Of a DNA stretch of 64,000 bases, positions 1 to 2,470 are shown one piece after another. The number at the start of each line of letters is the position of its first letter. Position 1 is the first letter of the stretch. Made by a program: the position numbers and the translations under genes. The notes under the pieces were generated by a model that searched no databases, was not told where the DNA came from, and saw only the letters and a list, made by a program, of their open reading frames with translations. The DNA lies in NCBI RefSeq assembly GCF_053078305.1, contig NZ_CP166879.1; one strand, written 5' to 3'.

Positions 1-2470
1 TGTCTGACACGGACCAACGGTAGCAAGTCTTGCTCCAACATTTGGTCGCGGTGCGATGACCAACCACTGGGTCGACATCAAGAACGCCAACCTCGTCGTG
101 GTGATGGGCGGTAACGCCGCTGAAGCTCACCCGGTCGGGTTCCGCTGGGCGATGGAAGCCAAAATTCACAATGGCGCGAAGCTGATTGTGATCGATCCTC
201 GCTTTACGCGTACGGCTGCGGTGGCTGACTACTATGCCCCTATTCGTTCCGGTACTGACATTGCTTTCCTGTCAGGCGTATTGCTGTACCTGCTGAACAA
301 TGAAAAATTCAACCGCGAATACACCGAAGCCTATACCAACGCCAGCCTGATCGTGCGTGAGGATTACGGCTTTGAAGATGGCCTGTTCACCGGCTACGAC
401 GCGGAAAAACGCAAGTACGATAAATCCTCCTGGACTTACGAACTGGACGAAAACGGCTTCGCCAAACGCGATACCACGCTGCAACATCCGCGCTGCGTGT
501 GGAACTTGCTGAAACAGCACGTTTCCCGCTACACGCCAGATGTGGTTGAAAACATCTGTGGTACGCCAAAAGACGCGTTCCTGAAAGTCTGCGAATACAT
601 CGCAGAAACCAGTGCTCACGATAAAACTGCCTCGTTCCTGTATGCCCTCGGCTGGACGCAACACTCCGTTGGTGCGCAAAACATTCGTACGATGGCGATG
701 ATCCAGCTGCTGCTCGGTAACATGGGGATGGCTGGCGGCGGCGTTAACGCCCTGCGCGGTCACTCCAATATTCAGGGGCTGACGGACCTGGGGCTGCTGT
801 CGCAGAGCCTGCCAGGTTACATGACGCTGCCAAGCGAGAAGCAGACCGATCTGCAAACCTACCTTACCGCCAACACGCCAAAACCGCTGCTGGAAGGCCA
901 GGTAAACTACTGGGGCAACTACCCGAAATTCTTCGTCTCCATGATGAAGGCCTTCTTTGGTGATAAAGCGACGGCGGAAAATAGCTGGGGCTTTGACTGG
1001 TTGCCGAAGTGGGATAAAGGCTACGACGTCCTGCAATACTTCGAGATGATGAAAGAGGGCAAGGTCAATGGCTATATCTGCCAGGGCTTTAACCCTGTTG
1101 CCTCATTCCCGAACAAAAACAAAGTGATCGGTTGTCTGTCGAAACTGAAGTTCCTCGTCACCATCGACCCGCTGAACACTGAAACCTCTAACTTCTGGCA
1201 GAACCACGGTGAGCTGAACGAAGTTGACTCGTCGAAGATCCAGACCGAAGTGTTCCGTCTGCCATCGACCTGCTTCGCGGAAGAGAACGGTTCTATCGTT
1301 AACTCAGGTCGCTGGTTACAGTGGCACTGGAAAGGTGCGGACGCCCCGGGGATTGCGCTGACTGACGGCGAGATCCTCTCCGGTATCTTCCTGCGCTTGC
1401 GCAAGATGTATGCCGAACAGGGTGGCGCGAACCCGGACCAGGTGCTGAACATGACCTGGAACTACGCCATTCCGCATGAGCCGAAGTCGGAAGAAGTAGC
1501 GATGGAGAGCAACGGTAAGGCGCTGGCCGATATTACCGATCCGGCAACCGGTGCGGTTATCGTCAAGAAAGGCCAACAACTTAGCTCGTTCGCCCAATTG
1601 CGCGATGACGGTACAACCTCCTGTGGCTGCTGGATTTTCGCCGGTAGCTGGACGCCGGAAGGCAACCAGATGGCACGCCGTGATAACGCCGATCCGTCTG
1701 GCCTCGGTAACACGCTGGGCTGGGCATGGGCATGGCCGCTTAACCGCCGCATTCTGTATAACCGCGCCTCCGCAGATCCGCAGGGTAACCCGTGGGATCC
1801 GAAGCGTCAGTTGCTGAAATGGGACGGCACTAAGTGGACCGGCTGGGATATTCCGGACTACAGCGCAGCGCCTCCGGGTAGCGGCGTCGGGCCGTTTATC
1901 ATGCAGCAGGAAGGCATGGGGCGTCTGTTTGCCCTCGATAAGATGGCGGAAGGTCCGTTCCCGGAACACTACGAGCCGTTTGAAACGCCGCTGGGAACTA
2001 ACCCGCTGCATCCAAACGTTATCTCGAACCCGGCTGCACGTATCTTTAAAGACGATGCCGAAGCATTGGGTAAAGCCGATAAGTTCCCGTATGTCGGAAC
2101 CACCTATCGTCTGACCGAGCACTTCCACTACTGGACCAAACACGCGCTGTTGAACGCGATTTTGCAGCCAGAGCAGTTTGTGGAAATCGGGGAGTCGCTG
2201 GCGAATAAACTTGGCATTGCCCAGGGCGATACCGTGAAAGTCTCCTCCAACCGTGGCTATATCAAAGCCAAAGCGGTGGTGACCAAACGTATTCGCACGC
2301 TGAAAGCGAACGGCAAAGATATCGATACCATCGGTATTCCGATTCACTGGGGCTATGAAGGCGTAGCTAAAAAAGGCTTTATTGCCAATACGTTAACGCC
2401 ATTCGTTGGTGATGCAAACACGCAGACGCCGGAGTTTAAGTCCTTCCTTGTGAATGTGGAAAAGGTGTAA
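1..2470 (+). CDS. fdoG: Formate dehydrogenase-O alpha subunit (selenoprotein), 5'-truncated by the window edge
   Basis: ORF 56..2470 translates to a molybdopterin formate dehydrogenase catalytic subunit; the frame continues upstream through an in-frame TGA at 5..7 followed by HGPTVASLAPTFGRGAMTNHW, the selenocysteine context of FdoG/FdnG. fdoH, fdoI and fdhE follow. Confidence 0.93.
5..50 (+). promoter_or_regulatory. Selenocysteine UGA codon and downstream SECIS-like hairpin (recoding signal)
   Basis: In-frame TGA at 5..7 in the fdoG frame, immediately followed by a hairpin-forming stretch (ggtagcaagtcttgctcc). Bacterial SECIS elements lie directly 3' of the Sec codon. Confidence 0.7.

What the first reader, a model, noticed from the sequence alone, without database searches (positions are those of the whole stretch)
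1..60. In-frame UGA at bases 5-7 is the fdoG selenocysteine codon, with SECIS-like hairpin downstream
The ORF track starts fdoG at Met 56 only because TGA at 5..7 terminates the six-frame translation. The frame is continuous through it (…V-U-HGPTVASLAPTFGRGAMTNHW…), matching the Sec context of formate dehydrogenase catalytic subunits, and the following 40 nt can form a stem-loop as expected for a bacterial SECIS. Standard ORF calling would mis-truncate this gene.
Basis: partly seen in the sequence, partly recalled or inferred. Interest (0 to 1): 0.4.

Follow-up and report, generated by a model that had tools for sequence, protein, structure and literature searches.

The report
Known fdoG selenocysteine codon plus SECIS

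Summary
The observation and the interpretation are both confirmed, and the feature is already known.

- **Gene and codon:** The window begins inside E. coli fdoG. The window's 820 residues after the TGA are 819/820 identical to K-12 FdoG and 76% identical to FdnG, and fdoH-fdoI-fdhE follow. The in-frame TGA at 5..7 is codon 196 and the only internal stop of the 1016-codon gene. It sits in the column where the FdnG crystal structure (1kqf) and other selenocysteine-containing formate dehydrogenase structures have a non-standard residue.
- **SECIS match:** Window 2..60 matches Rfam SECIS_3 (RF01989) at 84.3 bits against a gathering score of 63 (E = 7e-20). The bulged U (window 21) and the loop G-U (27-28) lie at +17 and +23/+24 from the UGA, as in the fdhF model SECIS.
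- **Covariation:** In 78 distinct homologous sites from many phyla the upper stem is 98% paired. Pairs of synonymous third-codon positions covary (A-U, G-C, C-G), and the third-position loop U is invariant.
- **Weak point:** Folding energy alone is not distinctive (z = -0.45 to -1.9).
- **Prior evidence:** Mass spectrometry has already shown the peptide VU196HGPTVASLAPTFGR (PMC3636253).
- **Annotation:** NCBI's annotation already spans the codon, so only naive ORF callers truncate the gene.

Novelty: none. Interest: low.

The parts
1..2470 (+). 3' part of fdoG (last base of codon 194 through codon 1016 and the stop), catalytic alpha subunit of formate dehydrogenase O. The window cuts off the first 581 bases of the gene.
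   Evidence: Frame-2 translation. Window 1..2470 is identical to L001 2501..4970 inside the annotated CDS 1920..4970. TIGR01553 scores 1278 bits against a cut-off of 814. The protein is 819/820 identical to K-12 FdoG and 76% identical to FdnG.
5..7 (+). UGA codon 196, decoded as selenocysteine (Sec196, the molybdenum ligand).
   Evidence: It is the single in-frame stop of the full-length gene. It aligns with the non-standard residue 196 of FdnG in 1kqf_A and with the same column in the Desulfovibrio selenocysteine-containing formate dehydrogenase chains. The peptide VU196HGPTVASLAPTFGR has been identified by mass spectrometry (PMC3636253).
2..60 (+). Extent of the SECIS element as matched by Rfam SECIS_3. 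The structured part is 8..50, directly after the UGA.
   Evidence: RF01989 scores 84.3 bits against a gathering score of 63, E = 6.7e-20, with model positions 1-59 of 59 matched. The sequence is identical to the K-12 fdnG SECIS over window 2..66.
19..36 (+). Upper stem-loop, the inferred SelB-binding minihelix. Pairs are 19-36, 20-35, 22-34, 23-33, 24-32, 25-31 and 26-30. U21 is bulged (U17 counted from the U of UGA). The apical loop is G27 U28 C29 (G23, U24, C25).
   Evidence: The MFE fold and the Rfam consensus agree on this structure. The key bases sit at the same positions as in fdhF (review PMC8659212). The helix is 98% paired over 78 distinct homologous sites, and 4 of 7 pairs change on both sides. 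Pairs 22-34 and 25-31 join synonymous third-codon positions, and U28 is an invariant third position.
8..17 (+). 5' arm of the lower stem. It has to melt when the ribosome places the UGA in the A site.
   Evidence: Rfam consensus pairs 8-14 with 44-50 and 16-17 with 42-43. In E. coli two of these nine pairs are mismatches (13-45 A.G and 9-49 A.C), and ViennaRNA prefers a register shifted by one base. The helix is 85% paired across taxa with no or one double-sided change.
42..50 (+). 3' arm of the lower stem.
   Evidence: Same evidence as for the 5' arm.
2483..3385 (+). fdoH, the iron-sulfur beta subunit (operon context that identifies the paralog).
   Evidence: TIGR01582 scores 478.7 bits against a cut-off of 334.7. 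Annotated fdoH.
3382..4017 (+). fdoI, the cytochrome b556 gamma subunit.
   Evidence: NF007924 (the FDH-O type) scores 453 bits, against 243.6 bits for the FDH-N gamma model NF007558. Annotated fdoI.
4014..4943 (+). fdhE, a formate dehydrogenase accessory protein.
   Evidence: NF002925 scores 604 bits against a cut-off of 426. Annotated fdhE.

Best explanation
Window 5..7 is the UGA that encodes selenocysteine 196 of FdoG, the molybdopterin-containing catalytic subunit of E. coli formate dehydrogenase O. The mRNA directly 3' of it (structured part 8..50) is a bacterial SECIS element.

Mechanism, taken from work on the E. coli fdhF SECIS and inferred here:
1. The upper stem-loop (19..36, with bulged U21 and loop G27-U28) binds the C-terminal domain of the specialised elongation factor SelB, which carries Sec-tRNA(Sec) (the selC product) and GTP.
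2. As the ribosome approaches, the lower stem melts. The tethered complex delivers Sec-tRNA(Sec) to the UGA in the A site, largely pre-empting release factor 2.
3. Translation then continues for 820 more codons.
4. Without selenium or the sel gene products, translation ends at codon 196.

Shown here: the codon, its frame, its homology to the structurally established Sec position, the SECIS match, the positions of the key bases, and RNA-level covariation. Inferred from the literature: SelB binding and selenium insertion.
For: **Gene identity**
- Window 1..3000 is 100% identical to E. coli chromosomes and is present in 5425 of 5426 complete genomes.
- The protein is 819/820 identical to K-12 FdoG and 76% identical to FdnG.
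- fdoH, fdoI and fdhE lie downstream and fdhD lies upstream.

**Sec codon**
- It is the only internal stop of the 1016-codon CDS, at codon 196.
- It aligns with the non-standard residue 196 in the FdnG structure 1kqf and with the same column in Desulfovibrio chains named 'selenocysteine-containing'.
- Mass spectrometry found Sec and never Cys at position 196 of FdoG/FdnG, in the peptide VU196HGPTVASLAPTFGR. Translation stops at codon 196 in selC mutants (PMC3636253).

**SECIS**
- Rfam SECIS_3 scores 84.3 bits against a gathering score of 63, E = 6.7e-20.
- U at +17 and G-U at +23/+24 from the UGA are as in fdhF. These are the positions reported as SelB contacts (PMC8659212).

**Covariation over 78 distinct FdnG/FdoG-type sites from Proteobacteria, Acidobacteria, Actinomycetota and others**
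- The upper helix is 98% paired. Cells with changes on both sides number 51 against 13.6 in shuffles (0 of 500 shuffles reach the observed value). The structure is 90.6% paired against 27-49% with slid partners.
- Pairs 22-34 and 25-31 link third-codon positions of unchanged amino acids and switch among A-U, G-C and C-G. Loop U28 is a third position that is T in 78/78 sequences, while the other third positions vary.

**Other support**
- The longest identical run between the paralogs fdoG and fdnG (77.5% nucleotide identity overall) is 71 nt and covers window 2..72. The next longest run is 22 nt.
- The machinery is present in the species: selC is in 5424 of 5426 genomes, and selA and selB are annotated in K-12.
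Against: - Folding energy is not distinctive compared with shuffled sequence (z = -0.45 to -1.91).
- The lower stem of the E. coli sequence fits the Rfam consensus imperfectly, with two mismatched pairs, and it has an alternative register.
- In the covariation test the number of pairs with a double-sided change (4) did not exceed the shuffles (133 of 500 reach it). Shuffle control (a) also ignores relatedness.
- Columns 1..15 were partly fixed by the search pattern, so their invariance is uninformative.
- No sel gene and no tRNA-Sec lie in the window.
- Nothing here measures selenium incorporation in this particular strain.
Confidence: 0.97

Rival explanations
1. The gene is fdnG (formate dehydrogenase N), as the RefSeq/PGAP label says, and not fdoG.
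For: PGAP names the CDS 'fdnG: formate dehydrogenase-N subunit alpha' in every listed record. Window 2..66 is base-for-base identical to the K-12 fdnG SECIS region. The best NCBIfam model, TIGR01553, carries the FDH-N name.
Against: - The protein is 819/820 identical to curated K-12 FdoG b3894 but only 621/819 identical to FdnG b1474.
- It differs from K-12 fdoG at only 20 of 2470 nucleotides, against 77.5% overall identity to fdnG.
- The neighbours are fdoH, fdoI, fdhE and fdhD, as at the K-12 fdo locus.
- The gamma subunit scores 453 bits on the FDH-O model against 244 bits on the FDH-N model.
- Either way the Sec/SECIS reading would be unchanged.
Confidence: 0.02
2. The TGA is a true stop, either a pseudogene or a split gene. 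The ORF from ATG 56 would then be a separate protein, or the downstream part would not be made.
For: The mechanical ORF call starts at ATG 56. UGA is normally a stop in table 11. Termination at this codon does happen on a fraction of ribosomes, and always happens without Sec-tRNA(Sec) (PMC4513850; PMC3636253).
Against: - The TGA and its context are kept in 104 homologous sites from many phyla, always in frame with the conserved HGPTV...GRGAMTN sequence.
- The same column is Sec in solved structures.
- A peptide spanning the codon has been seen by mass spectrometry.
- ATG 56 is simply the internal Met of the conserved GRGAMTNHW motif.
- The locus is kept in 5425 of 5426 E. coli genomes.
Confidence: 0.01
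3. The hairpin is a by-product of strong protein-sequence conservation around the active site and not a selected RNA signal.
For: The encoded peptide HGPTVASLAPTFGRGAMTNHW is very conserved. The folding energy is not better than that of shuffles.
Against: - Covarying pairs 22-34 and 25-31 are synonymous third positions (Val/Ala and Ala/Leu), so protein selection cannot explain their coordinated change.
- U28 is a four-fold or two-fold degenerate third position, yet it is T in 78/78 sequences.
- Slid-partner controls drop from 90.6% paired to 27-49%.
- Seventeen loci from other enterobacterial genera are identical to window 2..66 at every synonymous site.
Confidence: 0.01

Closest known systems
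E. coli K-12 fdoG (b3894) Sec196 codon and its SECIS
   Same: It is the same gene. The protein is 819/820 identical and only 20 of 2470 nucleotides differ. The codon number (196) and the operon (fdoGHI-fdhE, with fdhD divergent) are the same.
   Different: There is only strain-level variation, for example one amino-acid change (K in place of S at residue 493 of the compared 820-residue stretch). There are no differences in the Sec codon or the SECIS.
E. coli fdnG SECIS, Rfam family SECIS_3 (RF01989)
   Same: Window 2..66 is identical to K-12 fdnG. The Rfam model is matched over its full length, above the gathering score.
   Different: The host gene is the paralog (76% protein identity). In the enterobacterial sequence the lower stem has two mismatches relative to the family consensus, which Pseudomonas-type members fit perfectly.
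E. coli fdhF SECIS (Rfam SECIS_2, RF01988), the experimental model for SelB binding
   Same: It has the same architecture: the UGA, then 11 nt, then a minihelix with a bulged U at +17 and G23-U24 in the apical loop. The first 11 bases after the UGA are nearly identical.
   Different: The 3' arm and the loop-closing pairs have different sequences. The window scores only 20.3 bits on SECIS_2 against a gathering score of 70. The fdhF apical loop is GGUC on a 4-bp top helix, whereas here the loop is GUC on a 5-bp top helix.

Membership tests
Bacterial SECIS, Rfam SECIS_3 (RF01989) | Covariance-model score at or above the family's gathering score | tested here: met
   84.3 bits against 63, E = 6.7e-20, all 59 model positions matched, window 2..60.
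Bacterial SECIS, Rfam SECIS_3 (RF01989) | Lies inside the coding region, immediately 3' of an in-frame UGA | tested here: met
   UGA is at 5..7, in frame with the upstream and downstream fdoG sequence. The structured part starts at base 8.
Bacterial SECIS, Rfam SECIS_3 (RF01989) | Upper minihelix with a bulged U at +17 and G23/U24 in the apical loop, at fixed spacing from the UGA | tested here: met
   U21, G27 and U28 of the window are positions +17, +23 and +24, the same as in fdhF. These determinants are described in PMC8659212.
Bacterial SECIS, Rfam SECIS_3 (RF01989) | Base pairing maintained by compensatory change across species | tested here: met
   The upper helix is 98% paired and 4 of 7 pairs change on both sides. 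Synonymous third positions covary. The lower helix is only weakly supported: 85% paired, with no or one double-sided change.
Bacterial SECIS, Rfam SECIS_3 (RF01989) | Binds SelB and directs Sec insertion | not testable with these tools
   This is inferred from work on fdhF (PMC4513850, PMC8659212). selC is present in 5424 of 5426 E. coli genomes, and selA and selB are annotated in K-12.
Selenocysteine-containing respiratory formate dehydrogenase alpha subunit (FdnG/FdoG, TIGR01553) | Family-model score above the curated cut-off | tested here: met
   1278 bits against 814.2, even for the C-terminal 820 residues alone, aligned to profile positions 196-1009.
Selenocysteine-containing respiratory formate dehydrogenase alpha subunit (FdnG/FdoG, TIGR01553) | The UGA aligns with the structurally established Sec (the Mo ligand) | tested here: met
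   The query column falls on the non-standard residue 196 of 1kqf_A, and on the equivalent residue of 1h0h_A and 6sdr_A.
Selenocysteine-containing respiratory formate dehydrogenase alpha subunit (FdnG/FdoG, TIGR01553) | The full-length gene has one in-frame stop only, plus a Tat signal and an N-terminal 4Fe-4S Cys motif | tested here: met
   This was tested on L001, whose DNA is identical to the window where they overlap. It has a single '*' at codon 196, the RRQFFK motif and CTYCSVGC. The N-terminal 194 codons lie outside the window.
FDH-O (fdoGHI) as opposed to FDH-N (fdnGHI) | Orthology to K-12 fdoG and fdo-type synteny | tested here: met
   99.9% identity to FdoG against 76% to FdnG. fdoH, fdoI and fdhE lie downstream and fdhD upstream. 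The gamma subunit scores best on the FDH-O model.
FDH-O (fdoGHI) as opposed to FDH-N (fdnGHI) | Selenium actually incorporated at residue 196 | not testable with these tools
   This has been published for E. coli MC4100 by mass spectrometry (PMC3636253). It has not been measured for the strain of this window.

The most novel reading that the evidence does not exclude
The SECIS tract may be frozen over more sequence than SelB binding is known to need.

- A 71-nt run (window 2..72) is identical between the paralogs fdoG and fdnG, which otherwise share 77.5% nucleotide identity.
- Window 2..66 is identical in 17 loci from Providencia, Photorhabdus, Yersinia, Klebsiella, Citrobacter, Enterobacter and related genera. 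That includes about 20 nt 3' of the hairpin.

This could reflect recurrent gene conversion between the paralogs, or an additional undescribed constraint such as a ribosome- or SelB-contacting 3' extension. The alternative is ordinary purifying selection on the hairpin plus a very conserved peptide.
Probability: 0.1. Interest if true: 0.3.

Novelty: already known. Interest (0 to 1): 0.07.

Why it matters
The feature matters only for annotation hygiene. A six-frame or naive ORF reading truncates fdoG at Met 213 (window 56) and hides a 1016-residue selenoprotein, so scans that rely on such tracks should recognise UGA plus SECIS. Biologically this is one of the three classic E. coli selenoprotein genes. 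The Sec196 codon, the SECIS family and selenium insertion are all published and are already handled by RefSeq annotation. The work here adds a clean demonstration that synonymous sites in the hairpin covary across phyla. It opens no new question.

Tried and rejected
- **Thermodynamic test of the hairpin:** z-scores of -0.45 (5..60), -1.37 (5..50) and -1.91 (16..44) are not significant. I dropped this line as evidence and used the covariance model and covariation instead.
- **Rfam SECIS_2 (fdhF type):** only 20.3 bits against a gathering score of 70. The element belongs to SECIS_3 and not SECIS_2.
- **Lower-stem register:** ViennaRNA pairs 10-17 with 42-50 with G48 bulged, whereas Rfam pairs 8-14 with 44-50. 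Across 78 sequences the two score about the same (84.5% and 84.9% paired). The register in E. coli is therefore left undecided. The pair 13-46 of the Vienna register fails in 58 of 78 sequences, so across taxa the Rfam register is the better one.
- **PGAP's 'fdnG' label:** rejected on identity and synteny.
- **Technical dead ends:** Two scripts failed because loci were not yet exported. The first collection pattern had too few fixed bases. The last loop of the script crashed after all needed output had been printed.
- **Chance matches:** 6 of the 120 pattern matches in genome contigs had no Fdh context and were discarded. Ten were fdhF-type and were kept out of the alignment because their 3' arm is in a different register.

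Full report
**What is in the sequence.** The window opens with tgtcTGAcacgga.... In frame 2 the translation reads V-*-HGPTVASLAPTFGRGAMTNHWVDIKN... It then runs open for 820 codons to a stop at 2468..2470. The mechanical ORF list begins this frame at ATG 56 (56..2470, 804 aa). That ATG is simply the Met of the conserved GRGAMTNHW motif. Only four bases precede the TGA in the window, which means upstream continuity cannot be judged from the window alone.

**Where it comes from and which gene it is.**
- Window 1..3000 is 100% identical to several E. coli chromosomes, and the region is present in 5425 of 5426 complete E. coli genomes.
- In NZ_CP149565.1 the annotated CDS spans L001 1920..4970 and the window starts at L001 2501. 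Window 1..2470 equals that stretch exactly.
- The full-length frame has a single internal stop, at codon 196. It also has a twin-arginine signal (RRQFFK) and the N-terminal CTYCSVGC cluster motif.
- PGAP calls the gene 'fdnG', but the window's 820 residues after the TGA are 819/820 identical to curated K-12 FdoG (b3894) and only 621/819 (76%) identical to FdnG (b1474).
- At nucleotide level the window differs from K-12 fdoG at 20 of 2470 positions.
- fdoH, fdoI and fdhE follow, and fdhD lies upstream and divergent, as at the K-12 fdo locus. The gamma subunit scores 453 bits on the FDH-O model against 244 bits on the FDH-N model.
The PGAP label comes from a family model shared by the two paralogs.

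**Is the TGA the Sec position?** I searched a 136-residue segment around the codon, with X at the TGA, against the sequences of solved structures. It aligns end to end with FdnG in PDB 1kqf. The query X falls on the non-standard residue at position 196 of that chain. The same column holds the non-standard residue in 1h0h and in the Desulfovibrio chains that depositors name 'selenocysteine-containing'. A published mass-spectrometry study of E. coli Fdh-O and Fdh-N identified the peptide VU196HGPTVASLAPTFGR. It never found cysteine at that position, and it states that translation of fdnG and fdoG mRNA ends at codon 196 without Sec-tRNA(Sec) (PMC3636253). That peptide is exactly what window 2..52 encodes.

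**Is the hairpin a SECIS?**
- Folding energy alone does not say so. The z-scores against dinucleotide shuffles are -0.45 (5..60), -1.37 (5..50) and -1.91 (16..44).
- The Rfam covariance model SECIS_3 (RF01989) matches window 2..60 over its full length at 84.3 bits, against a gathering score of 63 (E = 6.7e-20). The fdhF-type model SECIS_2 reaches only 20.3 bits against 70.
- The MFE fold and the Rfam consensus agree on the upper stem-loop. The pairs are G19-C36, G20-C35, A22-U34, G23-C33, C24-G32, A25-U31 and A26-U30, with U21 bulged and a G27-U28-C29 loop.
- Counted from the U of UGA, these are U17, G23 and U24. They occupy the same positions as in fdhF and are the bases a review lists as essential SelB contacts (PMC8659212).

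**Independent covariation test: data.** I scanned one genome per species for GCNCGNGTNTGACAYGGNCC, which encodes A-R-V-U-H-G-P. This pattern leaves everything 3' of window base 15 free. Of these, 104 had the FdnG/FdoG peptide context, 10 were fdhF-type and 6 had no Fdh context. The 78 distinct 66-mers, window included, align without gaps, so alignment columns equal window coordinates.

**Independent covariation test: result.**
- On the Rfam structure, 90.6% of cells are paired, against 27-49% when partners are slid by 1-3 columns.
- Cells changed on both sides number 51, against 13.6 ± 4.4 in shuffles (0 of 500 reach the observed value).
- The upper helix is 98% paired, and 4 of its 7 pairs change on both sides.
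- The codon mapping is decisive. Pairs 22-34 (third positions of Val and Ala/Gly codons) and 25-31 (third positions of Ala/Ser and Leu codons) switch among A-U, G-C and C-G while the amino acids mostly stay the same.
- U28 is a degenerate third position that is T in all 78 sequences, while neighbouring third positions use three or four bases. Protein selection cannot produce this pattern.

**Caveats on the covariation test.**
- The count of pairs with any double-sided change (4) is not above the shuffles (133 of 500 reach it).
- The shuffle control ignores phylogeny.
- Columns 1-15 were partly fixed by the search pattern.
- The lower stem is only 85% paired, with little compensatory change. 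In E. coli it has two mismatches against the consensus and an alternative register. This fits reports that the lower stem contributes modestly and must melt on the ribosome.

**Mechanism.** The following is inferred from the fdhF literature and was not tested here. SelB·GTP·Sec-tRNA(Sec) binds the upper minihelix while the SECIS is still outside the ribosome. When the UGA enters the A site the lower stem has unwound, and the tethered complex delivers Sec-tRNA(Sec). Release factor 2 mainly acts on ribosomes where delivery failed, and the measured recoding efficiency is about 30-40% (PMC4513850). The trans-acting parts are not in the window (no tRNA-Sec), but they are present in the species. selC is found in 5424 of 5426 genomes, and selA and selB are annotated in K-12.

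**Comparison and novelty.** This is the same element as in K-12 fdoG. It is base-identical to the fdnG SECIS over window 2..66. It is a full-scoring member of Rfam SECIS_3, and an architectural sibling of the fdhF SECIS, though not a sequence-family member of it. Every defining feature that could be tested was met. RefSeq already annotates the CDS across the codon, so only naive ORF calling is misled. The finding is correct and already known, and its interest is low.

**One mildly notable by-product.** The longest identical run between fdoG and fdnG is 71 nt and covers window 2..72, against 22 nt for the next longest run and 77.5% nucleotide identity overall. In addition, 17 loci from other enterobacterial genera are identical to window 2..66 at every synonymous site. 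Selection on the RNA explains the hairpin part. Whether the additional ~20 nt 3' of the hairpin are frozen by gene conversion, by an extra constraint, or just by the very conserved peptide was not resolved.

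Noticed in passing
window 6623..8467 (- strand): A single uninterrupted 614-aa ORF (TTG start) lies between yiiE and fabY and has no Pfam match at E<=0.001. In related E. coli records the same DNA is annotated as a 305-aa 'transposase' plus an incomplete hypothetical pseudogene. Window 5900..9000 is fully covered in only 1061 of 5426 complete E. coli genomes (best identity 98.9%), and the insert is absent from K-12.
   Followed up: partly
window 2..72; L002 (K-12 fdnG) 1084..1154: The longest perfectly identical run between the paralogs fdoG and fdnG is 71 nt and sits exactly on the Sec codon and SECIS. The next longest run is 22 nt and overall nucleotide identity is 77.5%. 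Seventeen loci from Providencia, Photorhabdus, Yersinia, Klebsiella, Citrobacter, Enterobacter and related genera are identical to window 2..66, synonymous sites included. I did not distinguish gene conversion from selection.
   Followed up: partly
window 1..2470 and RefSeq records H1-H18: PGAP labels the fdoG orthologue 'fdnG: formate dehydrogenase-N subunit alpha' in the listed E. coli genomes, while its neighbours are correctly called fdoH and fdoI. This is a systematic naming artefact of the shared TIGR01553 model.
   Followed up: yes
window ~9000..23776 compared with L005 (NZ_CP149565.1): The first 3 kb of the window are identical to strain 1504D004, but downstream landmarks are offset by about 4 kb (5S rRNA at window 43101 against L005 47099; Spot 42 at 33898 against about 37940). 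The window therefore lacks about 4 kb that this strain has somewhere before window 23776, possibly in the yih sulfoquinovose cluster.
   Followed up: no
L033 4120..4185 and L076 755..820 (Desulfovibrio/Mailhella-type Fdh): These two sites share the UGA context but encode TVPALAES, and they break most upper-helix pairs of the SECIS_3 structure. They account for the 'other' cells in pairs 22-34, 23-33 and 25-31. Their SECIS presumably has a different architecture or register.
   Followed up: no
window 23776..63566: Other Rfam hits at gathering score, all on the - strand, all known enterobacterial RNAs and none related to the finding: an rrn operon at 43101..48202 with tRNA-Ala(TGC) and tRNA-Ile(GAT) in the spacer; CsrC at 32616..32869; Spot 42 at 33898..34016; Erse at 63315..63566; ES222 at 25734..25841; STnc370 at 23776..23844 (54.9 bits, barely above its cut-off of 54); and StyR-44 at 46222..46330.
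   Followed up: no
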